DNA of 51,912 bases. Source: an uncultured Lentisphaeraceae bacterium. GTDB taxonomy: Bacteria; Verrucomicrobiota; Kiritimatiellia; RFP12; UBA1067. The notes under the pieces are model-generated. The model was not told where the DNA came from, did no database searches, and saw only the letters and a list, made by a program, of their open reading frames with translations. This document shows, one piece after another, positions 9,300 through 35,361 of this stretch; within the stretch, counting starts at the first letter, position 1; every line of letters begins with the position of its first letter. The stretch spans positions 1 through 51,912 of the forward strand of contig CAZXVN010000612.1 in assembly GCA_964643945.1 (NCBI GenBank), in the 5' to 3' direction. A program made the position numbers and the translations under genes.

Positions 9300-9347
9300 A
9301 GCCTGTTTTTCGGGTAGGGCAGAGCGCTTCAAAACGAGGAACTTTTC

Positions 9348-23321: not shown

Positions 23322-23370
23322 CCTTATCCCGTGTCAAACTGAGCCTGATTCAGCACGCGAAGGAATAAAA

Positions 23371-24954
23371 ATGGAACGACAGTTTTTAATGGGGAATGAA
23401 GCGGTTGCATGGGGTGCGCTGCATGCGGGGGCGGCCCGAGGAGCCGGTTATCCCGGAACACCGTCAAGCGAGATTCTCGATGTCTTCAATCAGCTCGGCG
23501 GCAAGGCCGAATGGGCGCCAAATGAAAAGGTCGCCGCCGAGGTGGCGCTGGGTGTTTCATTCGCCGGTGTGCGCGCCTTTACCACGATGAAGCACGTTGG
23601 ACTCAACGTCGCCGCCGATGTGCTTTTCACGGCCGCCTACAGCGGGGTGGACGGCGCGCTGGTTTTTGTGGTGGCGGATGACCCGGGGCTGGCCTCCAGT
23701 CAAAACGAGCAGGACACCCGTCGCTATGCTGTTGCCGCCGGCGTGCCGCTTATTGAGCCGTCTGATTCTCAGGAAGCTTATGATTTCACCCGGCTCGCAT
23801 TTGAGGTTTCCGAACGCTGGAAAATTCCGGTCATTCTCAAACTAACCACCCGCGTATGCCATTCGGGAACCCCTGTTGTGACGCGCACACCGGACCGCGA
23901 TTTGCCGACTGCGCATTTCGAGCGCAACATTCCTTATCGCGTCATGGTGCCCGGCCATGCCCGCCCGGCCCACCGCCGCCTGCGCCAGAAGCTGGCGGAG
24001 ATTGCCGAGTGGAATGAGAAGAAAGGGCCGAATCAGAAGTTCGACGGATCGGAGAATCTCGGCATTCTTGTTTCGGGCGTTGCTTATCAGCACGCACGGG
24101 AAGCCGCGCCGGACGCTTCCTTTTTAAAGATCGGGATGAGCTATCCGCTGCCGATGCGGCAGATGCTTGATTTTGCCGCATCGGTTAAAAGGGCGATGGT
24201 CATTGAAGAAAACGATCCCTATATGGCTGACGCCGTGCGCGCCGCGGGAGGTGCGGTTGAAAGCGCTCCGGAAATGTATCGCTTTGGCGAACTGGATGTG
24301 GGGCGCGTGAAGCGGATTTTGGCGGGCGACACCTCCCCCGAAGCGGTTCCGCCGCACGGCAAGCCGCCGCAGCTTTGCGCCGGCTGTCCGCATACGGCCA
24401 CGTTTGAGATGCTGAAAAAACACAACTGCATTGTTGCAGGCGATATCGGCTGCTATACACTGGCCGCGCTTCAGCCGCTGGCGGCGATGGATACGCAGAT
24501 CTGCATGGGTGCGAGTCTGGGCGTCGGCCTGGGACTGCGGCATGTCCTGCCGCGCGAAGAAGCCAAACGGGTGGTTAGCGTGATCGGCGACAGCACGTTT
24601 GTTCACAGCGGACTGACCGGGCTTGCAGAAATGACGTATAACGTGCCGCCGACCGGGCATGTGTTGCTGATTCTCGATAACGCGACAACGGCCATGACTG
24701 GCCAGCAGGAACATCCCGGCACGGGGCGGCGGCTGGACCATACGCCAACCAATCAGCTTGATTACGAAGCCGTGGTTCGCGCGCTGAAGGTTCCGAATAT
24801 TGGCGTTTTTGATCCGGTCCGCCAGTCCGGAGAGTTTGAAAAGGCGCTGGTCGAGGCGCTTGAAAAAGAAGAGCTGACGGTTTTAATCGTACGCCGCCCC
24901 TGTATTCTGGCAGTGGCCCGCAAAGGGGTGAAGCCGGTTAGAGCCGAAGGATGA
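23371..24954 (+). CDS. iorA: Indolepyruvate:ferredoxin oxidoreductase, alpha subunit (TPP-dependent).
   Basis: MERQFLMGNEAVAWGALHAGAARGAGYPGTPSSEILD, CAGCPH and GDIGCYTL blocks. RBS aaggaataaaa precedes ATG 23371. The 105 codons upstream in the track ORF were rejected. Confidence 0.85.
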   Translation: MERQFLMGNEAVAWGALHAGAARGAGYPGTPSSEILDVFNQLGGKAEWAPNEKVAAEVALGVSFAGVRAFTTMKHVGLNVAADVLFTAAYSGVDGALVFVVADDPGLASSQNEQDTRRYAVAAGVPLIEPSDSQEAYDFTRLAFEVSERWKIPVILKLTTRVCHSGTPVVTRTPDRDLPTAHFERNIPYRVMVPGHARPAHRRLRQKLAEIAEWNEKKGPNQKFDGSENLGILVSGVAYQHAREAAPDASFLKIGMSYPLPMRQMLDFAASVKRAMVIEENDPYMADAVRAAGGAVESAPEMYRFGELDVGRVKRILAGDTSPEAVPPHGKPPQLCAGCPHTATFEMLKKHNCIVAGDIGCYTLAALQPLAAMDTQICMGASLGVGLGLRHVLPREEAKRVVSVIGDSTFVHSGLTGLAEMTYNVPPTGHVLLILDNATTAMTGQQEHPGTGRRLDHTPTNQLDYEAVVRALKVPNIGVFDPVRQSGEFEKALVEALEKEELTVLIVRRPCILAVARKGVKPVRAEG

Positions 24955-25436
24955 CGGGTATGAGTGACAAAACAACCAGCATCAAAATCGCCGGTCTGGG
25001 CGGCATGGGCGTTCTGACAGCCACACAGATTCTCGCCGAAGTTTTTTTTCGCCGGGGTTTTGATGTGAAGAAAGCGGAAGTGCACGGCATGAGTCAGCGC
25101 GGCGGCTCAATCTGCAGCGATGTGCGCTTCGGCAAAAGAGTGTTCAGCCCGATGATTCCCGCCGGCGAGGTCGACTTCCTTGTTCTGTTTCAGGATGATC
25201 AACTTCCGCTTTACCAAGCGGATTGTTCACTGCAGACGGTGATCCTGAAGACGGGAATGATCGAGTTGGAAAGGCTGACCGCCAAACGGGCGATCAACAT
25301 CGCCATGCTGGGTCTGCTGAGTCGGCATCTGGAAAGTCCGGCCGATGACTGGCTGAACGTCATCCGTGACGTACTGCCGGAGAAGCTGCACAAACTGAAC
25401 GAAGCGGCCTTTGAGTTGGGGTGGCGGTCTGCATAG
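24951..25436 (+). CDS. iorB: Indolepyruvate:ferredoxin oxidoreductase, beta subunit.
   Basis: IKIAGLGGMGVLTATQILAEVFFRRGFDVKKAEVHGMSQRGGS. ATGA start/stop overlap with iorA. Confidence 0.85.
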   Translation: MTGMSDKTTSIKIAGLGGMGVLTATQILAEVFFRRGFDVKKAEVHGMSQRGGSICSDVRFGKRVFSPMIPAGEVDFLVLFQDDQLPLYQADCSLQTVILKTGMIELERLTAKRAINIAMLGLLSRHLESPADDWLNVIRDVLPEKLHKLNEAAFELGWRSA

Positions 25437-25450
25437 AAACAGGAGAACAC

Positions 25451-26776
25451 ATGGAAACCAACATCCGCCCCGAGTGTATGCCCGATTATCTGGAGCCTCG
25501 CGAGCTGCGCGCGTTGCAGCTTCAGCGGTTGAAGGCGACCGTTCAGCGCACGTACGACAACGTGGCGCTTTTCCGGCAGCGCCTGGATGATCGCCGCATG
25601 AAGCCCGCCGATGTCCAGACGCTGGACGACGTAAAAAGACTTCCCTTCACTCAGAAAACCGATCTGCGCGACACCTATCCCTACGGGCTTTTTGCCGTTC
25701 CGATGAAAGAGGTGGTCCGTTTGCACGCTTCCAGCGGCACGACCGGCAAGCCGATCGTCGTGGGCTACACACAGGCGGATCTTGATGTCTGGAGCAGTGT
25801 CATGCTCCGCTCCTTTGTCGCCGCCGGCATACACGCCGGCGATGTGCTCCAGAACGCCTATGGCTACGGCCTGTTCACCGGCGGCCTCGGCGCGCATTAC
25901 GGCGCAGAACGGCTGGGCGCAACCGTTATTCCGATTTCTGGCGGCAACACAGAGCGCCAGATTCTGGTGATGAAAGATTTCGGCGTCACCGCGATCTGCT
26001 GCACGCCAAGCTACTTTCTTCATCTGATTGAAAAAGTGCAGGCGAGCGGCATTTCCTTTAAAAGGCTCGGCGTGAAAACCGGCGTGTTCGGCGCGGAGCC
26101 GTGGACCGAGGCGATGCGCGCCTACATTCAGCGTGAATCCGGCATCAAAGCCTTCGACATTTACGGTCTTTCCGAAATCATCGGCCCTGGAGTCGGCATC
26201 GAATGCCGTGAGCAGGCCGGGCTTCATATTTTCGAAGACCACTTCCTGATCGAAATTGTTGATCCGAAAACGGACAACGTGCTGCCCGATGGCGAAGAAG
26301 GTGAGTTGGTTGTCACGACGCTCACGAAACAGGCGTTCCCGATGATCCGTTACCGTACGTATGATATGACTTCGATTATTCCGGAGCGGTGTGACTGCGG
26401 CCGCACCATTCGACGAATCAACCGCATCCGGTCCCGTAGCGACGACATGTTGATCATCCGCGGCGTCAACGTCTTCCCGTCGCAGATCGAAGCCGCGTTG
26501 CTGTCAGTTGATCAAACGGTGCCGCATTACCAGATTTTGCTCACCCGGAAGGGCGGGCTGGATCAGATCGAAGTGCAGGTCGAAGTGACCAAAGAAATGT
26601 TCGGCGACCGCATCAGCGAGCTGGAGTCGATCCAGGCGCGCCTTACGCAGGCCATTGACCATGTTGTCGGTCTGCGTGTACTGGTCCGTCTGGTCGAGCC
26701 GAACACGATCGCGCGCAGCGAAGGTAAGGCGAAACGGGTGAGTGATAAACGCAGCGAGGGGGGGGGGATTCGATGA
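25451..26776 (+). CDS. paaK: Phenylacetate--CoA ligase family enzyme (aryl-acetate/aryl-acetyl-CoA interconversion).
   Basis: LPFTQKTDLRDTYPYGLFAVPMKEVVRLHASSGTTGKPIVVGYTQADLDVWS, and DMLIIRGVNVFPSQIE. aggag RBS before ATG 25451. Confidence 0.85.
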   Translation: METNIRPECMPDYLEPRELRALQLQRLKATVQRTYDNVALFRQRLDDRRMKPADVQTLDDVKRLPFTQKTDLRDTYPYGLFAVPMKEVVRLHASSGTTGKPIVVGYTQADLDVWSSVMLRSFVAAGIHAGDVLQNAYGYGLFTGGLGAHYGAERLGATVIPISGGNTERQILVMKDFGVTAICCTPSYFLHLIEKVQASGISFKRLGVKTGVFGAEPWTEAMRAYIQRESGIKAFDIYGLSEIIGPGVGIECREQAGLHIFEDHFLIEIVDPKTDNVLPDGEEGELVVTTLTKQAFPMIRYRTYDMTSIIPERCDCGRTIRRINRIRSRSDDMLIIRGVNVFPSQIEAALLSVDQTVPHYQILLTRKGGLDQIEVQVEVTKEMFGDRISELESIQARLTQAIDHVVGLRVLVRLVEPNTIARSEGKAKRVSDKRSEGGGIR

Positions 26777-27204
26777 AACTGAAACAGATCTCTGTATTTT
26801 TAGAAAACCGGCTAGGACATCTCAGCCACGTCTGTGAAGTACTGGCGGAGGCCGGAATCAATATCGCTGCCATGACGTTGGCGGATACGCGTGAATTCGG
26901 CATCCTGCGCCTGATCGTCCGCGAATGGCAGCGCGCCAAAGACGCTCTCGAAGCTGCAGGCTTTGCTGCGAACATCACCGAGGTCATGGCGATTGAAGTC
27001 GCGGATGACCCCGGCGGGCTAAAGAGCATTCTCAAGGCGGCAGAAAGCGGCGGGCTAAGTATCGAATACATGTATGCTTTCGCCTACAAGCAGCAGAAGA
27101 AGAACGCGCTGATTGTCATCCGCTTTGACGATGTCGAACGTGCCTCGGCCGTGCTCGGAACGGCGGGGATCGGGATTTTGTCTGCCGCCGAGTTTTATGT
27201 ATAA
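26773..27204 (+). CDS. ACT domain-containing (amino-acid-binding) protein.
   Basis: Tandem ACT pattern: [49 protein letters not shown] ... [35 protein letters not shown] overlap with paaK. Confidence 0.8.
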   Translation: [143 protein letters not shown]

Positions 27205-27266: not shown

Positions 27267-28052
27267 TCACCCCTTGCGGGTGCCGTCTTCGATGCGGCCG
27301 ATCAGGCGGAGCAGCCCGTCGAGGATCGTGAGCGGGTGCGGCGGGCAGCCGGGAACGTAGAGGTCGACCGGCACGATGGCGGAGGCGCCGTTGTGGACCT
27401 GCTTGTGGCCGATGTAAGGCCCGCCTGAGATGGCGCACGCGCCGACCGCGATGACGATGCGCGGATCGGACACCGCGTCGTAGGTCTTCTGGAGCGCGAG
27501 CGCCATGTTCTGCGATACCGGCCCCGTGATCAGGAGGCCGTCGGCGTGGCGCGGCGAGGCCACGAACTGGATGCCGAAACGGCTCAGGTCCCAGCCGACC
27601 GTGTTGAGCACGTTGGTGTCGGCATCGCAGGCGTTGCAGCCACCCGCACTGACCTGGCGGAGTTTCAGCGAGCGCCCGAAAAGGGTTTTGAGTTTCTTGT
27701 CGAGTGCGGCACCGGCGACTTCCACGGCCAGCCGTTCGCGGGCGACGACGAGATCTTGACGGCGGCGCGCCGCCAGCTGGTAGCTGCGCGAATGCGTAAT
27801 GGCCAGCCGGGGGCAGGCGTTCGCACACTCGGTGCAGAAGAGGCATTTTCCCAAATCGATACGGGAGGGATCCGCCGGATCGAGCGCGCCGGTCGGGCAT
27901 GCGTCCATGCAGGCCCTGCAACCTTCAAGGCACTGAGCGGTGTCGATCAACGGGCGCCCGCGGAAACGGTCCGGCAACACCGGCGGCGCGCCGTCGGGAT
28001 ACTTCATCGTGCGGTGCTTCTGTTGCAGTCGGGCGAGTATCACTTTGATCAT
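27267..28052 (-). CDS. Fusion of a 2x[4Fe-4S] ferredoxin (HyfH/HycF-like) with a NuoB/HycG/HyfI-like small subunit.
   Basis: Starts at MIKVILARL, with GAGGA upstream. Fd motifs CLEGCRACMDACP and CLFCTECANACP. NuoB-type ligand blocks GGCNACD, GACAISGG, VPGCPP. Confidence 0.85.
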   Translation of the reverse strand: MIKVILARLQQKHRTMKYPDGAPPVLPDRFRGRPLIDTAQCLEGCRACMDACPTGALDPADPSRIDLGKCLFCTECANACPRLAITHSRSYQLAARRRQDLVVARERLAVEVAGAALDKKLKTLFGRSLKLRQVSAGGCNACDADTNVLNTVGWDLSRFGIQFVASPRHADGLLITGPVSQNMALALQKTYDAVSDPRIVIAVGACAISGGPYIGHKQVHNGASAIVPVDLYVPGCPPHPLTILDGLLRLIGRIEDGTRKG

Positions 28053-28062
28053 GGGAGGGTCC

Positions 28063-29595
28063 TCACAAATCGTGCCCGCAGTAGGACAGGTTGAAACTCT
28101 TGTTGCAGATCGGGAAGTCCGAGATCTCCTGATTTCGCAGGGCATAGGCGAGTCCCGGCCAGTTGTGGAACGACGGATCCACGACCTTGTAGCGCGAGAA
28201 GCGGCCCTGCGCGTCGGTGAGCGCCACATGGCAGACCTCGCCGCGCCAACTTTCGTTAAGGGCGGCGACAAAGCTGTCCGGCGCCAGTGCTTTGACCGGC
28301 ACGCGGGTCGCGCCGGAAGGCAGGGCATGGAGCTGGTCACGAATGAAACCGATGGCGTGCTGGATCTCCAGCCAGCGCAGATAGGCACGCGCGAAGACGT
28401 CGCCGGTCTCGCAGGTGGAGACGGGAATGTGGGCGAAACAGTAGATGCCAGAGGGCTGGTCGCGTCGTACGTCGCGCTCAATGCCCGAGGCTCGGGCCGC
28501 AGGGCCGACGATGCCCAACTCGGATGCGACAGTTCGAGACAGCGGGCCGACATCTTCGAAACGCGCCATGACCGACTGGGTGTTCCAGAGGAGGTTCACG
28601 GCGACGGCGGTGTCCTTCTCGCCGGCGTCGAGGCAACGCCCGAGTTCGGCGATGCGGTTGGCGTCCACGTCGAAGGCGACCCCGCCCGGCCGGAGCAGGC
28701 CGCGCCCGAAACGGCTTCCGCACAGCAGGGCGGTCATGTTGAGGAAATCGCCGCGGATGCGGCCGCAGTAACTGGCGGCGGGCAGAAAACCGACGTCGCC
28801 CGCCAGAGCGCCCAGGTCGCCGACGTGGTTGGCCAGCCGTTCAAGCTCCAACGCGATTCCACGCAGGGTCTGGGCACGGGCGGGCTTCTGACAGCTTGCG
28901 AGCGCCTCGATCACTTGGCAGTAGGTGGTGGTGTGCGCGACAGTCGAATCGCCCGAGAGGGTTTCGGCGTAATGGATCGTGCGCGCGCCGGGGCCGCCGA
29001 TGAGCGCCTCTTCCACGCCGCGGTGTTGAAACCCCAACGCGATCTCGAGGTGAAACACCTGTTCGCCGTGGCATTGGAAACGGAAGTGGCCGGGCTCGAT
29101 GACGCCGGCGTGGACCGGGCCGACCGCGACCTCGTGAACCTGTTCGCCGTTGACGCGGTAGAAGTCGCCCACGGCCGGCAGGATCGGCTGATCCGGAGAG
29201 CGGCCCCACGCGTCGCGGCCGGACCAAGAAGGGCAGTAGCGCACAGGCTTGAACCACGGGTGGCCGGCGGGGCGCAGGCCGAACTGCTCGGCGATCTCGC
29301 GTTCGAAGAGGTGCACCTGTGGACAGCGCGGCGTGAGCGAAGGGAACTCACTTCCTTCGATGTCGGTCGCGCCTGCGAAGAGCAGGTTCTGCTCGTCGGC
29401 GGCGAGTACGACATAAAGGCGGGTCGCGCCGGGGAGCGGAGAGGGGGCGCCGAACAGCGCGCTCACCCGCTGGCGTGTGGCCACGCCGTCAAGGATCGAC
29501 AGCTTGAAAGCCTCGAAGGAGAGGAGGGGAATGGCCGCACGCCTGACGGCTTGTCCGTTGGTCAGCATTGCGAGTGAGGGACGGCAGTCGTTCAT
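28063..29595 (-). CDS. HycE/HyfG-like (NuoC+NuoD fused) large subunit lacking the [NiFe] cysteine ligands (Ehr-like).
   Basis: Conserved blocks GPVHAGVIEPGHFRF and LGFQHRGVE are present. The N-terminal metal motif reads AETLSGDSTVAH (Ser at both Cys positions). The C-terminus reads SFNLSYCGHDL-stop instead of DPCxxCxxR/H. Confidence 0.8.
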   Translation of the reverse strand: MNDCRPSLAMLTNGQAVRRAAIPLLSFEAFKLSILDGVATRQRVSALFGAPSPLPGATRLYVVLAADEQNLLFAGATDIEGSEFPSLTPRCPQVHLFEREIAEQFGLRPAGHPWFKPVRYCPSWSGRDAWGRSPDQPILPAVGDFYRVNGEQVHEVAVGPVHAGVIEPGHFRFQCHGEQVFHLEIALGFQHRGVEEALIGGPGARTIHYAETLSGDSTVAHTTTYCQVIEALASCQKPARAQTLRGIALELERLANHVGDLGALAGDVGFLPAASYCGRIRGDFLNMTALLCGSRFGRGLLRPGGVAFDVDANRIAELGRCLDAGEKDTAVAVNLLWNTQSVMARFEDVGPLSRTVASELGIVGPAARASGIERDVRRDQPSGIYCFAHIPVSTCETGDVFARAYLRWLEIQHAIGFIRDQLHALPSGATRVPVKALAPDSFVAALNESWRGEVCHVALTDAQGRFSRYKVVDPSFHNWPGLAYALRNQEISDFPICNKSFNLSYCGHDL

Positions 29596-31025
29596 GGCTG
29601 ACCCTCCAGGAAAAGCACCGCGTCGTTGATCAACGTGGTCAGCGGGGCGGGGATGTAGAGTCCCACGAGCAGGACGAGCAGCATGAGGCCCGCCACCGGC
29701 GCGCCAGTCAGGAAGCCGTCGCGGTAAGGCGTGCTGCGCGCCTCGAACGATGCGCGGCCCTGCACGACCTTGAGCACGGTCGCGCCCATGCCGATGAAGA
29801 CCACCAGCAACAGGAAGAGGAAGGTTCCGCCAAGGGCGAAACGCCCGGCATCGAACGCGCCGTTAAGGATTGAAAATTCGCTGATGAACGGGCCGAAGGG
29901 CGGCGAGCCCGTGATGGCCAGGAAGCCGGCGAGGAAGAGGGTGCCGGAGAGCGGCAGGCGGCGCATCGCCCCGCAGACCTGTTCGGTGCTTTTGCTGCCG
30001 TAGGCGCGGTGGATGTTGCCGGCGGAAAGGAAGAGCACCCCTTTGGTCAGGCCGTTGGTCACGACGTGGAGCAGCGTGCCGTAAAGCGCCGGCGCGCCGA
30101 TGCCGAGGCCCAGCGCGAGGATGCCCATATGCTCCACGCTGGAGTAAGCGAGCATCCGTTTGAAATCGCGCTGGCCGACCATGAAGAGACTGGCCACGAC
30201 CATGGACAGGAGCCCCATGAAAAGGAGCAGGCGCGAGACGTAGGCGCCCTCGCCTGCCGCGAGGCAGATGTGATAGGTGCGCAGGAGGGCGAGGAACGCG
30301 CAACTGGTCACGCCGCCTGCGAGCATGGCGCCGACCACGCCCGGCGCCTCGCCGTAGGCGTCGGGCTTCCACGTGTGCATCGGGGCAAGGCCCATCTTGG
30401 TGCCGTAGCCCACGAGCAGAAGGACGAAGGCCGCGTGCAGCCACGGCTTGGAGAGCTTCGGCGCGTGGTCGAGAAGGCCTTCCAGCGTGAGGGTGGCTTC
30501 GAGCCCGGCATGCAGGGAGGCATAGGCCAGGAAGAAGGTTCCCAGCAGCGCGAGGGCGATGCCGACCGACCCGACGAGCAGGTACTTCCAGGTGGCTTCG
30601 ATGCTGCGCTGAGTGTGGTTGAAGTAGATCAGCGGCGCGGTCACGAGGGTGGTGCCTTCAATGGCGACCCACATCAGGCCGAGGTGGTGCGCCCAGATAA
30701 CCAGACTCATGATGCCGAGAAAGGTCATGAGGCAGGCGCAGAAGACGCGGTTGGGACGTTCCTCGCGGTGGCGGAGATAACCCGCGGCGTAGAACGAACA
30801 AAAGAAGAAGAGCGTGCTGACCGTGAGCAGGATGAGTTTGCCGAGCGGGTCGAGCACCAGCCAGGCCGCGCTGGTCGTCAGTTCCGGACGCGTCAGCGTC
30901 ACGAGGGTCAGAGTGAGATGCGTGATTCCCGTCACAGGCAGCAACCACGGGCGCAGACGGTTCGAGGGGATAACCGCCGCAAGGGCCGCCATCAGCATAG
31001 GCAAGAAGATCAGCGCGAAAGCCAT
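29592..31025 (-). CDS. HyfF/NuoN-like antiporter-type membrane subunit.
   Basis: 477-aa polytopic protein with proton-pump family blocks (WLHAAFVLLLVGYGTKMGLAPMHTWKPDAYGEAP). ATGA overlap with the next gene. Confidence 0.8.
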   Translation of the reverse strand: MAFALIFLPMLMAALAAVIPSNRLRPWLLPVTGITHLTLTLVTLTRPELTTSAAWLVLDPLGKLILLTVSTLFFFCSFYAAGYLRHREERPNRVFCACLMTFLGIMSLVIWAHHLGLMWVAIEGTTLVTAPLIYFNHTQRSIEATWKYLLVGSVGIALALLGTFFLAYASLHAGLEATLTLEGLLDHAPKLSKPWLHAAFVLLLVGYGTKMGLAPMHTWKPDAYGEAPGVVGAMLAGGVTSCAFLALLRTYHICLAAGEGAYVSRLLLFMGLLSMVVASLFMVGQRDFKRMLAYSSVEHMGILALGLGIGAPALYGTLLHVVTNGLTKGVLFLSAGNIHRAYGSKSTEQVCGAMRRLPLSGTLFLAGFLAITGSPPFGPFISEFSILNGAFDAGRFALGGTFLFLLLVVFIGMGATVLKVVQGRASFEARSTPYRDGFLTGAPVAGLMLLVLLVGLYIPAPLTTLINDAVLFLEGQP

Positions 31026-31028
31026 GGA

Positions 31029-31670
31029 CTACTCCTTTAGCGAAACCAGCCGGCGCGTGTCCGTCGAAGCGAACGCCTGATTGATCTGGTTGACGATGAT
31101 GCAGATCACAAAAATGCCGACGAAAAGATCGAGCAACACGCCCATCTCGACGACGAGCGGCATGGCCTCGACCAGCAACATGCCGAAAATGAAGATGCCG
31201 TTCTCGAGGACGAGATAACCCACGACTTGCGTGAGCGCTTTGAAGCGGGTGGTCAGCAGAATGAAGCCCACCAGGACGGTCGAGATGGAGGTGGGGACAA
31301 TCAGCGCACCGCTGTGCGCCTCGCTCAGAGGCAGTTGGTCGGCGAAGAGCAGCGCGAAGACCGTGGCCAGCGCGCCCAGGATCACCGAAGGCTGCAGTCC
31401 GACCAGCGGCTCCACCTCGCGCTTGATTTTGACATCGCGCAACGCGTGGATCATCATGCCCGGGATAATGACCCCTTTGAGCGCGAAGGTCGGGACAACG
31501 GTCAGGGCCGCCGAGAGCGTGAGATGCTCGTGCAAAAGGAGAGGGAGAAGGCTCAGCAACGCGCCTTGGGCAGCCACGGTCCGGATGACCGAGACAATCC
31601 GGCTGGTGCCCAGCACGAAGAGGTTGAGCATCAGGACGATCACGAGAAGGGTGTTTAAAAGATTGGTCAT
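31029..31670 (-). CDS. HyfE-like small membrane subunit (NuoK-related).
   Basis: 213-aa hydrophobic protein starting MTNLLNTLLVIVLMLNLFVLGTSR. Its position and size match hyfE. Confidence 0.7.
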   Translation of the reverse strand: MTNLLNTLLVIVLMLNLFVLGTSRIVSVIRTVAAQGALLSLLPLLLHEHLTLSAALTVVPTFALKGVIIPGMMIHALRDVKIKREVEPLVGLQPSVILGALATVFALLFADQLPLSEAHSGALIVPTSISTVLVGFILLTTRFKALTQVVGYLVLENGIFIFGMLLVEAMPLVVEMGVLLDLFVGIFVICIIVNQINQAFASTDTRRLVSLKE

Positions 31671-31674
31671 GCGA

Positions 31675-32583
31675 TCACCTTATCAACAAAATGAAACCGA
31701 AACCGCAGAAAAGCAGTGCGCCGACGAGCAGGTAGGGAACGTGCCGCATCTGGAGGCGCGCCATCACAGACTCCACGATGCCGATGATGGCCGCCAGTCC
31801 TAAGAGTTCCAGAAGGTACAGCGGCCAGTCTAACCAGGCCTTTCCGAACTCGAACGGCGCGATCACGTGAAGCAGCACGGTTCCCAGCACAAGCAGTTTG
31901 ACGGCCGCGGCGTAGAGAATCACGCCGAAGAGCGGGCCGCTGTGATCGAGCACCATCGCTTCGTGGATCATGGTCAGCTCCAAGTGCGTGTTCGGATCAT
32001 CCACGGGGAGACGGCAGGTCTCTGCCAGCAGCACGATGAAGAGGCCGATCGAGATCAACGCCAGCGGCGCAGCGACATCCGCTGAGAAGGTGTTCGCGGG
32101 GCTGTGCAGCATGGCTGTCAGCGTGAGAGAGCCTGACACCTTCGCCAGCACCATGAGGGCGAAGAAGAGCGCAGGTTCGGAGAGGCAGGCGAAGGTCACC
32201 TCGCGTGCCGCGCCCATACCTTCAAAGGCCGAGCCGGTGTCGAGCGCCGCCGAGGTGGTGAAAAAGCGCGCCAGACCGAAAAGATAGGCGAAGAGGATCA
32301 GGTCGCCCGTGAAGGCGATCGGCGCGTTGAAGCCGCCGATCGGGATCAGCAGCCCGGCCAGCAGCACCGTCGCCAGCGTGACGACCGGACCGGCGCGGAA
32401 GACCCACGTCGTGGTCGTGCTCAGCACCAGGCCCCTCCGCATCAGCTTGGCGAGGTCGTAATAGGGCTGCAGCAGAGGCGCGCCGACGCGCCCGCCGAAC
32501 CACGCCTTGGTTTTGGTGATCACGCCCAACAGCAACGGCGGCAGAATCAGCAGGAACGTCACATGGATGATGAGGTCAATCAT
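31675..32583 (-). CDS. HyfC/HycD/NuoH-like membrane subunit.
   Basis: ILPPLLLGVITKTKAWFGGRVGAPLLQPYYDLAKLMRRG is the characteristic HycD/NuoH N-terminal block. Confidence 0.8.
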   Translation of the reverse strand: MIDLIIHVTFLLILPPLLLGVITKTKAWFGGRVGAPLLQPYYDLAKLMRRGLVLSTTTTWVFRAGPVVTLATVLLAGLLIPIGGFNAPIAFTGDLILFAYLFGLARFFTTSAALDTGSAFEGMGAAREVTFACLSEPALFFALMVLAKVSGSLTLTAMLHSPANTFSADVAAPLALISIGLFIVLLAETCRLPVDDPNTHLELTMIHEAMVLDHSGPLFGVILYAAAVKLLVLGTVLLHVIAPFEFGKAWLDWPLYLLELLGLAAIIGIVESVMARLQMRHVPYLLVGALLFCGFGFILLIR

Positions 32584-32595
32584 GGTTTTCGTTTG

Positions 32596-34593
32596 TTACC
32601 GCGCGAACCACTGTGTGACAAACGCCTTGAACGGGAACAGCGTACACAGCAGCGCGAGCAGCGTCAACAGAACATAAAGCACATAGTGTTGCGTCAGCCC
32701 GCGTTGGAAGCGGTGGCTCCAGACGAGCCAGCCCTCGATGCGGTGCCCGGCAGGCAGAAGCACCCGGTCCAGCACCGCGTCATCCACATGACTGTGCGTG
32801 TGGGCCGGCAGCGGGAAGAGTCCGGCCACGCGCGGCCGCAGCCTGTGCGGATGAAGCACGCGGCTGAAGAGCAAGACAATCATCTGCGCGAACGAGGCGG
32901 CGGTGACCTGCATCCGGCTGGTCGGCCGTGCGTAACCACAGTCCCAGGTGAGACCGCTGCGCGGGGTTCCGCCGCAACGAAGAAGAACGGCCGCCAAGCC
33001 TGCCACACAAAAAACCAAAGAAACCGCCAGCACGCTGAGCATGCCCAGCGGAGCGATGTGTCCGAGGGGTGCAGTCTCTGTTCCGGTGCCTGCGAGCCAG
33101 CAGGCGGTGGTGGCGTCGAGAACCGGCCTGACCAGAAGCGGGGCGAGGCCGATCAGCACGCAGCTGGCGGCGAGCACCATCATCGGCAGCCGCATGGAGA
33201 AAGGCGCTTCGTAAGCCTGGCCGGCGGCCCGGGTGCGCGGCTCGCCCAGAAAGACGGCGCCGTATACTTTCACGAAACAGGCTACCGCCAGCGCGCCGAC
33301 CATCGCCAGCACCGGCACGCCGATCATGGCCGCCATTCCGCCGGAGAGCGCGGTTTTGAACAGCCCTAGATAGATGAACCACTCGCTCACGAACCCGTTC
33401 AGCGGCGGCAGTCCGCAGATGGCCACCGCACCGATGAGAAAACAGGCCGCAGTCCACGGCATGGCCTTGGCCAGTCCGCCGAGCCGGTCGATCTGCCGCG
33501 TGTGCGTGCTGTGGACCACCGCACCTGCGCAGAAAAAAAGCAGGGACTTGAAGAAGCTGTGGTTCCACACATGCAAGAGGCAGCCGGCCAGCCCCAGTGC
33601 GACCCACTCCGGATTTCCGGACGAGCGTCCCAGCATGGCCACGCCGAGACCCATCAGGATGATGCCGATATTCTCGACGCTGTGATAGGCCAGCAGGCGC
33701 TTGAGGTCGTGCTGGCCGATGGCGAACACGACGCCCATCAAGCCGCTGACCGCACCCAGCGCGAGGAGGATGCTGCCCCACGCGGCAGGCGGTACGGGCA
33801 GCAGCGACAGCCAGCGCACCAGACCGTAAATGCCCATTTTGAGAACCACGCCCGAGAGTATGGCGGAGACGTGGCAGGGGGCGCTGGCGTGTGCGCCGGG
33901 CAGCCAGAAGTGGAGCGGCATCGCGCCCGCCTTGAGGCCGAAACCGAGCAGCGCCAGAAAGAAAAACATGTGCAGGGTGCCCAGGCTCATCACGCTCTGC
34001 GCGACCGGTTGCAGGGCGTAAGAGCCGGTCGTGTGACGCCACAGGGCGAAGAGCCCGAAGAGGGTCAAGGTGCCCACGTGTGTGGCGAGCAGGTAGACCC
34101 AGCTCGCCTGGCGGCTCTCCGCGCGGTGGTCCTCGGTGGCGACAAGGAAAAAGGCCGAGAGCGCCATGATCTCCCAGCCCAGCAGAAAGGCCATCGCATG
34201 GCGGCTGATGACCAGCAGGGCCATTCCCGCTACGAGGAGACCCCAGAAAAGGCGGAGCTTGCGCCCGTTGCCCGGATGGCGGAGTTGGGGCCAGTAGCCC
34301 AAGCCATAGAGGGGGCCGAGTCCTCCCACGAGAAAGACCGGAACGAGAAAGAAGGCGCTCAGGGCGTCGAGACCGACCACCGCGTTGCCGGCCGCGGGCC
34401 ACGGGAAGAAGCGCGACGGCACGCCGCTGCCGCATAATCCGCCTGCCGCGCTGACGAGACCCGCGAACGCGGCACACAGCATGAGCGCAGTCGCGACACG
34501 CTCCCCCCAGGCCGATGACCGTGCCGACAAGAGCCCCGGCAGCCCGCTGGCGGCCGCCAGGGCAAGGGCGAAGAGGGTCAGGTCAAGGAACAT
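32596..34593 (-). CDS. HyfB/NuoL/MnhA-like antiporter-type membrane subunit.
   Basis: 665-aa polytopic protein with FGLKAGAMPLHFWLPGAHASAP and LLAYHSVENIGIILMGLG blocks. Confidence 0.8.
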   Translation of the reverse strand: MFLDLTLFALALAAASGLPGLLSARSSAWGERVATALMLCAAFAGLVSAAGGLCGSGVPSRFFPWPAAGNAVVGLDALSAFFLVPVFLVGGLGPLYGLGYWPQLRHPGNGRKLRLFWGLLVAGMALLVISRHAMAFLLGWEIMALSAFFLVATEDHRAESRQASWVYLLATHVGTLTLFGLFALWRHTTGSYALQPVAQSVMSLGTLHMFFFLALLGFGLKAGAMPLHFWLPGAHASAPCHVSAILSGVVLKMGIYGLVRWLSLLPVPPAAWGSILLALGAVSGLMGVVFAIGQHDLKRLLAYHSVENIGIILMGLGVAMLGRSSGNPEWVALGLAGCLLHVWNHSFFKSLLFFCAGAVVHSTHTRQIDRLGGLAKAMPWTAACFLIGAVAICGLPPLNGFVSEWFIYLGLFKTALSGGMAAMIGVPVLAMVGALAVACFVKVYGAVFLGEPRTRAAGQAYEAPFSMRLPMMVLAASCVLIGLAPLLVRPVLDATTACWLAGTGTETAPLGHIAPLGMLSVLAVSLVFCVAGLAAVLLRCGGTPRSGLTWDCGYARPTSRMQVTAASFAQMIVLLFSRVLHPHRLRPRVAGLFPLPAHTHSHVDDAVLDRVLLPAGHRIEGWLVWSHRFQRGLTQHYVLYVLLTLLALLCTLFPFKAFVTQWFAR

Positions 34594-34659: not shown

Positions 34660-35361
34660 CTACGGGGTCCCGGTGCTGGCCGGAGCAAGGGTGATCGCGG
34701 CTTCGGCCCTTGCGATCAGCGCCACCAGTTGGTTCTGCGCGGCCTGCCGCTTCAAGGCCGCCTTGACATCCGGGTTGCGCAGGATGAAGCCGAGCCGCGA
34801 CAGCAGGTGCAGGTGCGCCTTGACGGTGTGGCTGATGAGTGTAAACAGGATGTTGACGGGTTTGTTGTCGATCGCGCGGAAATCGATCGGGGTGTCGAGG
34901 AAGCAGAGCGTCACGGTCGGCGTGGAGACAGGCAGGACCACGGGGTTGCGCACATGCGGGATGGCGATGCCGTCGCCGACACCCGTGGAGCCCAGACTTT
35001 CGCGGGCCAGCAGCACTTGGTAAAGAAACTCGCGGTCCACCGCCTCCGGCAGCTTCAGCACATTGACGATGGCCCGCAATACGGTGGGCTGGTCGGTCCC
35101 GCCAACCCGGTAGGCCACGCCACCGGCCCGCAGCGCTTCGGTGAAGGTGGGCTGGCTGGACGTGTTCGGCTGACCCGTCGTGAAAAGATCGGGGGAGACC
35201 TGAACATTACGGGCGATGGCCCACTCCAACAGTTCGGCCCGGTTGAAGCGGATCTGCTCGTTGATCGTGTGCGAGGGGATCTCTTCCTGCTTGACCCACG
35301 TATAGATGGTTTCGTCAGAAACGTTCAGAAGGGCCGCTGCATCTTTCACTGACACTTGCAT
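34660..35361 (-). CDS. Fusion of an excisionase/MerR-type HTH with a PTS EIIA(Ntr/fructose)-type domain. Putative regulator.
   Basis: Starts at MQVSVKDAAALLNVSDETIYTWVKQEEIP (HTH). The EIIA block GSTGVGDGIAIPHVRNP contains the phosphorylatable His. It ends 66 nt upstream of the hyfB-like start on the same strand. Confidence 0.7.
   Translation of the reverse strand: MQVSVKDAAALLNVSDETIYTWVKQEEIPSHTINEQIRFNRAELLEWAIARNVQVSPDLFTTGQPNTSSQPTFTEALRAGGVAYRVGGTDQPTVLRAIVNVLKLPEAVDREFLYQVLLARESLGSTGVGDGIAIPHVRNPVVLPVSTPTVTLCFLDTPIDFRAIDNKPVNILFTLISHTVKAHLHLLSRLGFILRNPDVKAALKRQAAQNQLVALIARAEAAITLAPASTGTP

What the first reader, a model, noticed from the sequence alone, without database searches (positions are those of the whole stretch)
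28063..29595. Hyf/Hyc-type 'hydrogenase' large subunit with all four [NiFe] cysteine ligands replaced (Ehr-like complex of unknown substrate)
Six co-directional genes on the minus strand (27267..34593) reproduce the order hyfB-C-E-F-G-(H+I). They are tightly packed or overlapping, with two ATGA overlaps.

In the HycE/HyfG-like protein, the block that should carry RxCGxCxxxH reads A-E-T-L-S-G-D-S-T-V-A-H (nt 28933..28965, codons 211-221). Both Cys positions are Ser.

Where DPCxxCxxR/H should sit, the protein ends S-F-N-L-S-Y-C-G-H-D-L-stop (nt 28066..28116). There is no CxxC pair and no C-terminal extension for a maturation endopeptidase.

Neighbouring conserved blocks (GPVHAGVIEPGHFRF, LGFQHRG) and all NuoB-type Fe-S ligands are intact. 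This looks like a maintained gene, not a decaying one. No hyp or hycI genes are in the window.

Ligand-less relatives of group 4 hydrogenases/complex I are known as Ehr (energy-converting hydrogenase-related) complexes and have no assigned electron acceptor. The Pyrococcus Mbx/Mbs precedent shows such modules can be repurposed, there for sulfane reduction.
Basis: partly seen in the sequence, partly recalled or inferred. Interest (0 to 1): 0.72.

Follow-up and report, generated by a model that had tools for sequence, protein, structure and literature searches.

The report
Nickel-free hydrogenase-like membrane complex (Ehr/Hyq)
This is a well-preserved operon for a complex-I-like membrane machine descended from a hydrogenase that has lost all four nickel-iron ligands; it belongs to the known, widespread Ehr/Hyq family, whose substrate is still unproven, so it is a typical member, not a new kind.

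Summary
Six co-directional minus-strand genes (27267-34593) follow the order HyfB-C-E-F-G-(H+I). The 510-aa HycE-like protein has Ser214, Ser217, Ser504 and Gly507 where E. coli HycE has Cys241, Cys244, Cys531 and Cys534. It ends exactly at the HycE processing site. All 12 Fe-S cysteines of the fused small subunit are present. Only one ATGA overlap exists, not two.

This is not decay. dN/dS is 0.06-0.18. The loss is shared by 80 orthologues from more than 10 phyla and by about 80 more distant cluster representatives. These share a signature: x-G-D-x at L1 and S-Y-x-G-x-D-L-stop at L2.

The Ehr reading is supported. The cluster is also the same kind as the rhizobial hyqRBCEFGI "endo-hydrogenase": 35% identity to HyqG, with nearly the same L1 and C-terminal motifs. 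It has in-vivo H2 phenotypes but no enzymology.

One addition: a seventh gene (34660-35361) encodes an HTH fused to a PtsN-like EIIA domain with an invariant phospho-His motif. It precedes the operon in 53 of 54 assessable loci.

I infer a ferredoxin-linked, ion-translocating oxidoreductase. The acceptor is unproven; I lean towards quinone. Verdict: new member of a known kind, moderate interest.

The parts
34660..35361 (-). Reg: a 233-aa protein with an N-terminal HTH_17 DNA-binding domain and a C-terminal PTS_EIIA_2 (PtsN-like) domain. Its phosphorylatable His lies in the motif GDGIAIPHVRNP. It is the first gene of the conserved unit, 66 nt upstream of EhrA.
   Evidence: Pfam gives HTH_17 at 1.4e-13 and PTS_EIIA_2 at 9.9e-25. 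The best NCBIfam hit is PtsN TIGR01419, at 68.6 bits, below its cut-off. The gene is present, co-directional and directly upstream of EhrA in 53 of 54 assessable related loci. The His motif is invariant in 50 orthologues.
32596..34593 (-). EhrA: a 665-aa HyfB/NuoL-type antiporter-like membrane subunit.
   Evidence: NF005086 'hydrogenase 4 subunit B' scores 564 bits, below the 667 cut-off. Identity to E. coli HyfB is 41%. It keeps the TM5 Glu141, TM7 Lys221, TM8 Lys252, His341/His345 and TM12 Glu404.
31675..32583 (-). EhrB: a 302-aa NuoH/HyfC/HycD-type membrane anchor of the peripheral arm.
   Evidence: Pfam NADHdh at 1.9e-29. The best pairwise match is Rhizobium HyqC (35%, 1e-50), then HycD.
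31029..31670 (-). EhrC: a 213-aa HyfE-like membrane subunit.
   Evidence: NF008556 'hydrogenase 4 membrane subunit' at 8.7e-19, below its cut-off. The best pairwise match is Rhizobium HyqE.
29592..31025 (-). EhrD: a 477-aa HyfF-type antiporter-like subunit. Its stop overlaps the EhrL start (ATGA).
   Evidence: NF005044 'hydrogenase 4 subunit F' scores 323 bits, below its cut-off. It keeps Glu123, Lys210 and Glu383. The junction is shown.
28063..29595 (-). EhrL: a 510-aa NuoC::NuoD/HycE-like 'large subunit' without [NiFe] ligands. L1 reads S214-G-D-S217 and L2 reads S504-Y-C-G507-H-D-L-stop.
   Evidence: Pfam finds Complex1_49kDa and Complex1_30kDa only, with no NiFeSe_Hases hit. The best solved relative is HycE 7z0s_E, at 1.1e-48. 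Ligand columns are. dN/dS is 0.06-0.18. The best Foldseek hit is 7z0s_E with TM 0.64.
28933..28968 (-). The former L1 motif, A-E-T-L-S-G-D-S-T-V-A-H (residues 210-221). Gly215, Asp216 and His221 are invariant in the family.
28066..28110 (-). The C-terminal block I-C-N-K-S-F-N-L-S-Y-C-G-H-D-L (residues 496-510), containing the former L2 motif. It is the most conserved 15-residue block of the protein.
   Evidence: Mean column conservation is 0.98 over 80 orthologues.
27267..28052 (-). EhrS: a 261-aa fusion. The N-terminal part is a HycF/HyfH/NuoI-like 2x[4Fe-4S] domain. The C-terminal part is a HycG/HyfI/NuoB-like domain carrying a hydrogenase-type CxxC...C...C proximal cluster.
   Evidence: Pfam finds Fer4 families plus Oxidored_q6 at 7.8e-26. 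NCBIfam hits NuoB, HycF and HyfH.

Best explanation
IDENTITY (about 0.9). This is an Ehr/Hyq-type complex. It is a seven-gene unit: one regulator plus six structural genes. It encodes a complex-I-like membrane machine derived from a group 4 [NiFe] hydrogenase whose large subunit has lost the Ni-Fe site.

HOW IT MOST LIKELY WORKS.
1. Inferred from homology to HycF/MbhN/NuoI-type subunits: a soluble low-potential carrier, most likely ferredoxin, docks on the 2x[4Fe-4S] domain of EhrS. This domain is fused in this window.
2. The ligands are shown; the function is inferred: electrons pass along three [4Fe-4S] clusters to the proximal cluster, the equivalent of cluster N2.
3. Inferred: a proton-consuming reduction takes place in the remodelled, metal-ligand-free polar pocket between EhrL, EhrS and the NuoH-like EhrB. 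Family-invariant residues map to that pocket. Some are kept from hydrogenases: Glu167, His257, Arg368, Glu410, Arg451. Others are Ehr-specific: Asp216, Asp473, Asn498, Lys499, Ser504.
4. The residues are shown; the function is inferred: the reaction is coupled to H+/Na+ movement through the antiporter-like EhrA and EhrD, which keep the canonical Glu and Lys residues. The reaction may run in reverse.

THE SECOND SUBSTRATE IS UNPROVEN. My ranking is:
- membrane quinone, i.e. a reversible ferredoxin:quinone oxidoreductase: about 0.35
- another, unidentified acceptor: about 0.35
- sulfur compounds: about 0.1
- H2/H+ at a non-NiFe site: under 0.1

EXPRESSION (inferred). It is probably controlled by the HTH-EIIA protein through His phosphorylation by a PTS-type relay.
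For: - Gene content and order match HyfB-C-E-F-G-(H+I).
- All four Ni-Fe ligand positions are non-Cys, and the protein ends at the HycE cleavage position.
- The 12 Fe-S cysteines are intact, with a hydrogenase-type CxxC at the proximal cluster.
- The antiporter-like subunits keep the TM5 Glu, TM7 Lys and TM12 Glu.
- The FHL paper (PMC9474812) lists proton-pathway and canopy residues. Their equivalents are retained 80/80: E193->E167, H284->H257, R395->R368, E437->E410, R478->R451.
- Asp267, equivalent to Nqo4 Asp139, is kept as in NuoD, whereas HycE has Phe there.
- Selection is purifying, with dN/dS 0.06-0.18. 128 of 510 columns are nearly invariant across more than 10 phyla.
- The genome scan found 587 relatives and kept the best 80 loci.
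- The window shares a signature and operon order with rhizobial Hyq. EhrL is 35% identical to HyqG (1.5e-78), closer than to HycE.
- Published definitions of Ehr match these features (PMC6349859, PMC10284858, PMC3569383, PMC7894505).
- Reg is conserved in 53 of 54 loci, with an invariant His motif.
Against: - No biochemical assay exists for any member. The donor and acceptor are inferred only.
- Against quinone: the NuoD quinone-ligand Tyr aligns with the invariant Gly215, and the beta1-beta2 His is replaced by Ile-Glu. The proximal cluster lacks the tandem Cys of complex I. Ehr also occurs in lineages in which no quinone pathway was found (PMC6349859), and in Treponema and Fibrobacter MAGs.
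- Against a universal ferredoxin-docking domain: rhizobial HyqI lacks the 2x[4Fe-4S] domain.
- The canopy Asp that is 'strictly conserved' in hydrogenases and complex I is Asn502 here.
- No donor or acceptor gene is conserved next to the operon.
- The AlphaFold monomer is of low confidence in exactly the pocket segments, so no structural statement about the pocket is possible.
Confidence: 0.5

Rival explanations
1. It is a real H2-metabolising enzyme with an unconventional, cysteine-free active site. This is what was claimed for the homologous Hyq 'endo-hydrogenase': H2:quinone oxidoreductase activity, bidirectional in vivo.
For: - A. caulinodans delta-hyqRI mutants evolve about 15 times more H2 at 20 uM O2 and less H2 at under 1 uM O2. 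They also grow slowly on N2 (PMC2650096, PMC3357923).
- The window's EhrL shares the Hyq signature.
- It keeps hydrogenase-specific traits: the beta1-beta2 Glu167, the canopy Arg451 (Lys in most complex I) and a CxxC proximal cluster.
Against: - None of the four metal-binding Cys is present. 16 of 80 Ehr-signature representatives have no Cys at any of the four candidate positions checked (277, 497, 503, 506).
- The canopy Asp is lost.
- There are no hyp or hycI genes in the window.
- The Hyq evidence is genetic only. Its authors themselves call a Ni,Fe site 'uncertain, if not unlikely'.
- My own inference: the phenotypes can be explained indirectly. Lower electron flux to nitrogenase favours H2 evolution over N2 reduction.
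Confidence: 0.07
2. It is an MBS/Mbx-like sulfane-sulfur or polysulfide reductase, or a related thiol/disulfide reductase. In this reading the substrate is reduced at the proximal cluster or at the conserved Cys497/Cys506 pair.
For: - MBS shows that a NiFe-less group 4 module can reduce polysulfide at its proximal cluster (PMC7684303, PMC8165549).
- The close subfamily has conserved Cys at 277, 497 and 506 in or near the former active-site peptide.
Against: - The MBS proximal cluster has only three Cys ligands and MbsL keeps two NiFe Cys (PMC8165549). EhrS has all four ligands and EhrL keeps none.
- The Cys positions swap with Val, Ile, Ala, Ser or Phe in wider Ehr. In Hyq the second Cys sits at position 503, not 506.
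- MbsL is a weaker match (69.9 bits) than HycE (169.6 bits).
- The family is common in aerobes such as rhizobia, Variovorax and Gemmataceae.
Confidence: 0.1
3. It has no net catalysis. It would be a redox-gated Mrp-like cation/proton antiporter, in which the Fe-S arm only senses the ferredoxin pool and switches ion transport.
For: - No recognisable substrate site remains.
- No partner gene is conserved nearby.
- The antiporter modules are intact.
- The operon is under a PtsN-like regulator. In proteobacteria PtsN controls K+ transport (my general knowledge).
Against: - The whole substrate-proton pathway of hydrogenases and complex I is kept invariant (E167, H257, R368, E410, R451). This points to continued proton-consuming chemistry.
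- The former active-site peptide is the most conserved block of EhrL.
Confidence: 0.1
4. It is a non-functional relic of a hydrogenase under relaxed selection. A 2026 paper assumed this for Geobacter Ehr.
For: - PMC13194489 states that Ehr was 'already nonfunctional' because the NiFe centre is missing.
- All hits to NCBIfam equivalog models fall below their cut-offs.
Against: - dN/dS is 0.06-0.18.
- All six ORFs are intact and tightly spaced.
- Identity across phyla is 57-87% in the 80 loci and 71-90% among the top protein hits.
- The replacement residues are themselves invariant.
- All Ehr subunits are abundant in Geobacter proteomes grown on formate (PMC7894505).
Confidence: 0.02

Closest known systems
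Ehr (energy-converting / Ech-hydrogenase-related) complexes. The prototype is Geobacter sulfurreducens EhrA-1, A-2, B, C, D, L, S (GSU0739-0745; Coppi 2005; Marreiros et al. 2013).
   Same: - The subunit set is the same: NuoL-like, NuoH-like, HyfE-like and antiporter-like membrane subunits, plus a large and a small subunit.
- The large subunit lacks the NiFe cysteines.
- The function is unknown.
- Lentisphaerae and Spirochaetes sequences have already been placed in this group (PMC6349859).
- Many related loci carry two EhrA paralogues, as Geobacter does.
   Different: - The window has a single EhrA.
- I could not obtain the Geobacter sequences for a direct alignment.
- I did not find the conserved HTH-EIIA gene of this subfamily described in the open-access papers I read.
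The Hyq 'endo-hydrogenase', hyqRBCEFGI, of Azorhizobium caulinodans and rhizobia (Ng et al. 2009; Sprecher et al. 2012).
   Same: - The layout is a seven-gene R-B-C-E-F-G-I operon.
- HyqG is a NuoC::NuoD fusion of about 504 aa without either CxxC motif.
- The motifs are nearly identical: TSGDSTVAY versus LSGDSTVAH, and CNKSFNCSYSGHDL-stop versus CNKSFNLSYCGHDL-stop.
- Identity is 35%, with E = 1.5e-78.
- EhrB, C, L and S are all closer to the Hyq proteins than to E. coli Hyf/Hyc.
   Different: - HyqI lacks the N-terminal 2x[4Fe-4S] domain.
- HyqR is an unrelated 106-aa XRE-type HTH protein.
- The third Hyq-conserved Cys (Cys497) aligns with Leu503 here, while the window has Cys506.
- Hyq is in the nif regulon of aerobic diazotrophs. 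The regulation of the window's operon is untested.
E. coli hydrogenase 4 (HyfA-J) and hydrogenase 3 / formate hydrogenlyase (HycB-G, PDB 7Z0S).
   Same: - Gene order is B-C-E-F-G-H-I.
- The fold is shared (Foldseek TM 0.64 to HycE).
- The beta1-beta2 Glu, the canopy Arg, the proton-pathway residues and the CxxC proximal cluster are conserved.
   Different: - All four Ni-Fe Cys are absent.
- The canopy Asp529 is Asn here.
- There is no C-terminal extension.
- There are no HyfA, HyfD, HyfJ, HycB, HycH or HycI homologues and no formate dehydrogenase.
- HyfH and HyfI are fused.
- Identity to HycE/HyfG is 27-28%.
The Q and P modules of respiratory complex I (NuoB, CD, H, I, L, M, N) and the ferredoxin-dependent NDH-1 and Fpo-like complexes.
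   Same: - They have no NiFe site.
- A three-cluster wire ends at an N2-equivalent cluster.
- The membrane subunits are NuoH-like and antiporter-like.
- Asp267 corresponds to Nqo4 Asp139.
   Different: - The quinone-ligand Tyr and His are absent (Gly215 and Ile166-Glu167).
- There are no tandem-Cys N2 ligands.
- No separate NuoA, NuoJ or NuoK homologues were found.
- Identity to NuoCD is 22-25%.
Pyrococcus MBS (formerly Mbx), a sulfane-sulfur reductase (PDB 6U8Y).
   Same: It is a precedent for a group 4 hydrogenase module repurposed after loss of the NiFe site.
   Different: - MBS keeps two NiFe Cys and has a three-Cys proximal cluster. Ehr keeps none and has four.
- Its membrane arm is Mrp-type and differs from this one.
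- The sequence match is weak, at 69.9 bits (PMC8165549).

Membership tests
[quoted passage not shown] | The large and small subunits are homologous to those of group 4 [NiFe] hydrogenases and to NuoD/NuoB. | tested here: met
   HycE 7z0s_E scores 1.1e-48 and MbhL 6.7e-32. Oxidored_q6 scores 7.8e-26. Foldseek gives TM 0.64 to HycE.
[quoted passage not shown] | The large subunit lacks the N- and C-terminal CxxC motifs that bind Ni-Fe. | tested here: met
   Ser214, Ser217, Ser504 and Gly507 lie under HycE Cys241, Cys244, Cys531 and Cys534. The same holds in 80 orthologues and about 80 wider representatives.
[quoted passage not shown] | The genes are clustered with Mrp/complex-I-type membrane subunits (NuoL-like EhrA, NuoH-like EhrB, HyfE-like EhrC, antiporter-like EhrD). 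| tested here: met
   Gene names are as listed for Geobacter in PMC7894505.
[quoted passage not shown] | Direct orthology to the Geobacter prototype (GSU0739-0745). | not tested
Only the published description was compared.
Hyq endo-hydrogenase (hyqRBCEFGI) | A seven-gene operon in the order R-B-C-E-F-G-I, with a NuoC::NuoD-fused HyqG that lacks both CxxC motifs. | tested here: met
   The window order is Reg-EhrA-B-C-D-L-S. The Rhizobium plasmid locus L084 has the same layout.
Hyq endo-hydrogenase (hyqRBCEFGI) | Three completely conserved HyqG cysteines (Cys258, Cys491, Cys497). | tested here: not met
   Cys277 and Cys497 match Hyq Cys258 and Cys491. Hyq Cys497 aligns with Leu503, and the window has Cys506 instead.
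Hyq endo-hydrogenase (hyqRBCEFGI) | HyqI is a plain NuoB-like small subunit, and HyqR is the first gene. | tested here: not met
   EhrS carries an extra 2x[4Fe-4S] domain. HyqR is HTH_31/HTH_3 and shows no similarity to the window's HTH_17-EIIA protein.
Hyq endo-hydrogenase (hyqRBCEFGI) | It is a member of the nif regulon, and its loss changes in-vivo H2 evolution. | not testable with these tools
   This needs expression and physiology data. No nif genes are in the window.
Canonical group 4a/4f [NiFe] hydrogenase (Hyc/Hyf/Ehf) | L1 RxCGxCxxxH and L2 DPCxxCxxH/R with four Cys. | tested here: not met
   The nearest Cys-bearing representatives (P0235, P0239, P0248) are only 34-35% identical.
Canonical group 4a/4f [NiFe] hydrogenase (Hyc/Hyf/Ehf) | A C-terminal extension removed by a HycI-type endopeptidase, with hyp maturation genes. 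| tested here: not met
   The protein ends at the column of HycE Arg537. No hycI or hyp domains were found in the window. The rest of the genome was not available.
Complex I / NDH-1 quinone module (NuoD/NuoB) | The quinone-ligand Tyr (Nqo4 Tyr87) and the beta1-beta2 His (His38). | tested here: not met
   The Tyr of E. coli NuoCD aligns with the invariant Gly215. The His aligns with Ile166, next to Glu167.
Complex I / NDH-1 quinone module (NuoD/NuoB) | Tandem Cys-Cys ligation of cluster N2. | tested here: not met
   EhrS has C139-x-x-C142, as HycG and HyfI do. NuoB has Leu-...-Cys-Cys at that site.
[quoted passage not shown] | A proximal [4Fe-4S] cluster with only three Cys ligands, and two vestigial NiFe Cys in MbsL. 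| tested here: not met
   There are four ligands in EhrS and no vestigial Cys at the ligand columns. The criterion is taken from PMC8165549.

The most novel reading that the evidence does not exclude
The cysteine-free pocket of Ehr/Hyq large subunits is not an empty scar but a new catalytic site. Its family-invariant residues are Glu167, Asp216, His257, Asp267, Asp473, Asn498, Lys499, Ser504 and Tyr505, sitting next to a hydrogenase-type proximal cluster. In this reading the site turns over H2/H+, as the in-vivo Hyq phenotypes suggest, or another small molecule. It would do so without a Ni-Fe-cysteine centre. In the subfamily to which the window belongs, it would be switched by a dedicated PTS-phosphorylated HTH-EIIA regulator.
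Probability: 0.07. Interest if true: 0.9.

Novelty: new member of a known kind. Interest (0 to 1): 0.35.

Why it matters
Ehr/Hyq complexes are one of the largest uncharacterised branches of the complex I superfamily.

- The genome scan found 587 relatives, and the best 80 loci span more than 10 phyla.
- The protein database returned more than 8000 hits.
- Public records label them 'hydrogenase' or 'NADH-quinone oxidoreductase subunit C'. Metabolic reconstructions of PVC bacteria, spirochaetes, myxobacteria, rhizobia and others may therefore credit them with H2 or NADH metabolism that they probably do not perform.

This window adds no new kind of system. The analysis does give three things:
1. 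A simple sequence signature for separating the family from true hydrogenases: x-G-D-x at L1 and S-Y-x-G-x-D-L-stop at L2.
2. A link between the 'Ehr' and 'Hyq' literatures.
3. A conserved regulator and a cultured carrier, Pontiella sulfatireligans F21 (locus L029), that could make the function testable.

Tried and rejected
- **Conserved neighbours as clues to donor or acceptor.** I clustered the ORFs within 6 kb downstream of EhrS and 5 kb upstream of Reg in the related loci. No family occurs in more than 6 loci. IorAB, PaaK and ACT adjoin the ehr genes only in this window, so the amino-acid-fermentation link is not general.
- **Family-specific cysteines as a new metal or disulfide site.** Cys175, 277, 292, 455, 497 and 506 are nearly invariant in the close subfamily. 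In wider Ehr they swap with hydrophobic or small residues. 16 of 80 representatives have no Cys at any of positions 277, 497, 503 and 506. I rejected them as a universal catalytic element.
- **AlphaFold2 monomer of EhrL, to inspect the pocket.** Mean pLDDT was 67.6. Confidence was below 50 in the beta1-beta2 loop, at 214-216, over much of 348-398 and at 478-510. The model is unusable for the pocket and served only for a fold search.
- **Names from cluster look-up.** These gave only generic labels.
- **Similarity between HyqR and the window's regulator.** None was found.
- **Sequencing error or pseudogene.** Rejected on codons and dN/dS.
- **Promoter and terminator scan.** It was uninformative inside the operon. 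It did show a strong terminator and a tRNA-Ala just upstream of Reg.
- **L020 variant.** In this Methylococcaceae contig EhrL and EhrS lack adjacent EhrA-D. I looked at it but did not resolve it.
- **NJ tree.** The neighbour-joining tree is rough. I do not rely on its placement of Cys-bearing sequences inside the Ehr radiation.


Full report

Yes. The ORF listing and direct reading give six co-directional minus-strand genes:

| Gene | Coordinates | Length |
|---|---|---|
| EhrA | 32596-34593 | 665 aa |
| EhrB | 31675-32583 | 302 aa |
| EhrC | 31029-31670 | 213 aa |
| EhrD | 29592-31025 | 477 aa |
| EhrL | 28063-29595 | 510 aa |
| EhrS | 27267-28052 | 261 aa |

EhrS starts at the ATG at 28052, preceded by GAGG. 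The intergenic distances are 12, 4, 3, -4 and 10 nt. The cluster is therefore tightly packed, but it has one ATGA overlap (EhrD/EhrL), not two.

Profile searches reproduce the order HyfB-C-E-F-G-(H+I):
- EhrA hits 'hydrogenase 4 subunit B' at 564 bits.
- EhrB hits NADHdh/NuoH.
- EhrC hits 'hydrogenase 4 membrane subunit' (HyfE).
- EhrD hits 'hydrogenase 4 subunit F' at 323 bits.
- EhrL hits Complex1_30kDa and Complex1_49kDa, with no hit to the Ni-Fe hydrogenase large-subunit family.
- EhrS hits two ferredoxin-type 4Fe-4S motifs plus NuoB/Oxidored_q6.

Every equivalog-level NCBIfam score is below its curated cut-off. These proteins are relatives of the named E. coli proteins, not members of those families.

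**2. The ligand positions**

The best solved relative of EhrL is E. coli HycE (7z0s_E, E = 1.1e-48). MbhL, Nqo4 and, much more weakly, MbsL follow.

Two alignments agree: the HMMER alignment and a MAFFT alignment with E. coli HycE, HyfG and NuoCD.
- TLSGDSTVAH lies under RVCGICGFAH. Ser214 and Ser217 take the places of Cys241 and Cys244.
- NLSYCGHDL lies under DPCYSCTDR. Ser504 and Gly507 take the places of Cys531 and Cys534.
- The stop codon follows Leu510, in the column of HycE Arg537. HycE and HyfG continue there with the extension that the maturation protease removes.

The codons are TCG, TCG, TCC and GGG. Three of the four positions need two substitutions to encode Cys.

EhrS keeps all twelve Fe-S cysteines. 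The proximal cluster has the hydrogenase-type C139-x-x-C142...C206...C236 pattern rather than the tandem Cys of NuoB.

Pfam scans of the other window ORFs found no Hyp, HycI or nickel-transport domains.

**3. A maintained gene in a very large family**

The top 120 are 71-90% identical and nearly all 506-517 aa long. They come from Verrucomicrobiota, Lentisphaerota, Latescibacterota, Sedimentisphaerales and Deltaproteobacteria MAGs.

The species-level genome scan found 587 relatives.
- The closest are uncultured Lentisphaeraceae at 87% and 84% identity. The window probably comes from that group.
- The family also spans Kiritimatiellae (including the cultured Pontiella sulfatireligans F21), Planctomycetota, Verrucomicrobiota, Spirochaetota, Fibrobacterota, Myxococcota, Desulfovibrionales, Zixibacteria, Methylomirabilota and others.

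dN/dS of EhrL against six orthologues is 0.06-0.18. 128 of 510 columns are nearly invariant in 80 orthologues.

The replacement residues are themselves fixed:

| Position | Residues in 80 orthologues |
|---|---|
| 214 | Ala 68, Ser 10 |
| 217 | Thr 67, Ser 7, Ala 5 |
| 504 | Ser 80 |
| 507 | Gly 80 |

Gly215, Asp216, His221, Tyr505, Cys506, Asp509 and Leu510 are invariant. The last 15 residues are the most conserved block of the protein, at 0.98.

In a scan of 50%-identity cluster representatives, the same signature persists down to about 32% identity. It reads [A/S/C]-G-D-[S/T] at L1 and S-Y-x-G-x-D-L-stop at L2. The nearest sequences with CGxC and CYSC are only 34-35% identical.

This contradicts the statement in a 2026 Geobacter paper that Ehr is simply non-functional (PMC13194489).

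**4. Which residues are kept and which are changed**

I used the residue list of the FHL structure paper (PMC9474812).

EhrL keeps the following in all 80 orthologues:
- the beta1-beta2 proton-donating Glu (E193 -> E167);
- the canopy Arg (R478 -> R451);
- the proton-pathway His, Glu and Arg (H284 -> H257, E437 -> E410, R395 -> R368).

The 'strictly conserved' canopy Asp529 is Asn502 in 77 of 80.

Asp267 corresponds to Nqo4 Asp139. It is kept as in NuoD, whereas HycE has Phe there. The quinone-ligand Tyr of NuoD aligns with the invariant Gly215.

Ehr-specific invariant polar residues absent from both HycE and NuoCD include Asp216, Asp473, Asn498, Lys499 and Ser504.

Several cysteines are nearly invariant in the close subfamily: Cys175, 277, 292, 455, 497 and 506. 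They are replaced by hydrophobic or small residues in wider Ehr. 16 of 80 representatives have no Cys at any of positions 277, 497, 503 and 506. I do not treat them as a universal active site.

The antiporter-like EhrA and EhrD keep the canonical TM5 Glu, TM7 Lys and TM12 Glu. EhrA also keeps the TM8 Lys and the His pair.

**5. Surroundings**

tblastn of the window's neighbours against 80 related loci shows that IorA, IorB, the PaaK-like ligase and the ACT protein are not conserved next to the cluster. In the window these lie at 23368-27204 on the plus strand and converge on ehr.

De novo clustering of flanking ORFs found no conserved gene downstream of EhrS or upstream of the regulator.

One neighbour is conserved. 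The gene at 34660-35361 (minus strand) encodes an HTH_17 DNA-binding domain fused to a PTS EIIA-2 domain. The EIIA domain's best NCBIfam match is PtsN, below the cut-off.
- It sits directly upstream of EhrA, co-directional, in 53 of 54 assessable loci.
- In some of the loci examined it abuts or overlaps EhrA.
- Its GDGIAIPHVRNP phospho-His motif is invariant in 50 orthologues.
- In the window it follows a strong terminator (35674-35649) and a tRNA-Ala(CGC) gene (35491-35566).

The conserved unit therefore has seven genes. Many loci carry two EhrA paralogues; the window has one.

**6. Comparison with what is known**

*Ehr.* The features above are exactly those used to define Ehr complexes: relatives of group 4 hydrogenases with Mrp/complex-I-type membrane subunits that lack the Ni-Fe cysteines. 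The function was still called unknown in 2023 (PMC6349859, PMC10284858, PMC3569383, PMC7894505). PMC6349859 explicitly places Lentisphaerae and Spirochaetes sequences in its Ehr cluster.

It is a seven-gene hyqRBCEFGI operon. [quoted passage not shown]

A tblastn search of plasmids recovered rhizobial copies. The Rhizobium sp. SRDI969 plasmid locus has the same gene layout.
- Its HyqG is 504 aa, with Cys259, Cys491 and Cys497.
- It is 35% identical to the window's EhrL (E = 1.5e-78). HycE scores 28% and 7e-55.
- It reads TSGDSTVAY and CNKSFNCSYSGHDL-stop.
- EhrB, C, L and S are each closer to the Hyq proteins than to E. coli Hyf/Hyc.

There are differences.
- HyqI lacks the 2x[4Fe-4S] domain.
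- HyqR is an unrelated XRE-type HTH protein.
- One of the three Hyq-conserved cysteines aligns with Leu503.

The window is therefore a sister subfamily of Hyq within Ehr, not a Hyq orthologue.

*Structures.* No Ehr or Hyq structure is in the PDB. The best Foldseek hit of the moderate-confidence model is HycE at TM 0.64, followed by E. coli NuoCD.

*MBS.* MBS differs. It has three Cys on the proximal cluster and two vestigial Cys in MbsL (PMC8165549).

**7. How it most likely works**

*Shown:*
- A peripheral arm with ligands for three [4Fe-4S] clusters.
- A large subunit with no Ni-Fe ligands, but with the substrate-proton pathway intact.
- A NuoH-like anchor.
- Two antiporter-like subunits with their key charged residues.

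*Inferred:*
- Reduced ferredoxin, or a similar carrier, donates electrons at the HycF/NuoI-like domain.
- The electrons reach the proximal cluster.
- A proton-consuming reduction occurs in the remodelled polar pocket at the EhrL/EhrS/EhrB interface.
- This reaction is coupled, perhaps reversibly, to ion translocation.

*The acceptor is unproven.* I lean towards a membrane quinone, at about 0.35.
- In favour: the pocket architecture, the NuoD-like Asp267, and the abundance of the family in respiring bacteria.
- Against: the classical Tyr and His ligands and the tandem-Cys N2 are absent, and Ehr occurs in lineages reported to lack quinone synthesis (PMC6349859).

*H2 turnover.* The Hyq work reports H2 phenotypes. 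Deletion raises H2 evolution about 15-fold at 20 uM O2, lowers it at under 1 uM O2, and slows diazotrophic growth. This is in-vivo genetics only, and the authors doubt a Ni-Fe site. My own untested inference is that the phenotypes could arise indirectly. If the complex supplies low-potential electrons to nitrogenase, its loss would lower electron flux, and low flux favours H2 evolution. I put direct H2 turnover at under 0.1.

*Nitrogen status.* Two unrelated regulatory designs hint at a link: NifA/sigma-54 with glutamine repression for hyq, and a PtsN-like EIIA fusion here. The PtsN assignment is weak.

**8. Verdict**

The locus is a typical, intact member of a known and very widespread family of unknown function.

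Nothing in this window is new in kind. The useful by-products are:
- the family signature;
- the Ehr-Hyq connection;
- the conserved HTH-EIIA gene;
- a cultured carrier for experiments.

Interest is moderate because the family's substrate remains an open question. This particular instance does not by itself make that question more testable.

Noticed in passing
window 34660-35361 (-); related loci L003-L080: An HTH_17 + PTS-EIIA (PtsN-like) gene with an invariant GDGIAIPHVRNP phospho-His motif is the first gene of the ehr unit in 53 of 54 assessable loci across many phyla. L003, L028 and L063 carry two tandem copies. I did not find it described in the open-access papers I read.
   Followed up: partly
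window 23368-27204 (+): This is an IorA/IorB (indolepyruvate:ferredoxin oxidoreductase-type), PaaK-like aryl-CoA ligase and ACT-pair gene cluster. It converges on the 3' end of the ehr operon. It is a ferredoxin-linked aromatic 2-oxoacid module, but it is not conserved next to ehr elsewhere.
   Followed up: partly
window 35491-35566 (-) and 35649-35674 (-): A tRNA-Ala(CGC) gene and a strong intrinsic-terminator-like hairpin (11-bp stem, T-run) lie just upstream of the regulator gene. They mark the start of the ehr transcription unit.
   Followed up: no
L085 (Variovorax sp. PBL-E5 plasmid 3) 3851-11135 and 14547-19374: This plasmid carries two Ehr-like clusters about 3.4 kb apart. The first is 43% identical to the window's EhrL and has the same fused Fer4+NuoB small subunit. 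In all, 249 plasmid records carry an EhrL/HyqG relative, mostly from Sinorhizobium, Rhizobium and Azospirillum.
   Followed up: partly
L020 (Methylococcaceae contig) 8283-11723: An EhrL/EhrS pair (68% and 65% identical to the window's) has no EhrA-D genes in the 9 kb upstream. A 380-aa ORF with a weak GNAT hit sits directly upstream instead. This could be a variant architecture or a chimeric contig.
   Followed up: partly
representatives P0235, P0239, P0248: The nearest true-hydrogenase-like sequences (CGxC / CYSC; Planctomycetota 'Ca. Wujingus') are 34-35% identical. In a rough NJ tree they nest among Cys-less Ehr sequences. This hints at repeated loss, or regain, of the Ni-Fe ligands. The tree is too crude to rely on.
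   Followed up: no
window 1107-3062 (+): A 651-aa secreted protein contains a hydrazine-synthase alpha-subunit middle domain (PF18582, 2e-24). It lies next to GH106 rhamnosidase-family genes (3367-7335 and 9348-12008).
   Followed up: no
window 18572-19741 (-): A 389-aa protein has two nucleoside-diphosphate-kinase (NDK) stretches. This is far longer than a normal NDK of about 140 aa.
   Followed up: no
public annotations: Family members are routinely labelled 'hydrogenase', 'Ni,Fe-hydrogenase III large subunit' or 'NADH-quinone oxidoreductase subunit C'. Both labels are contradicted by the ligand analysis.
   Followed up: yes
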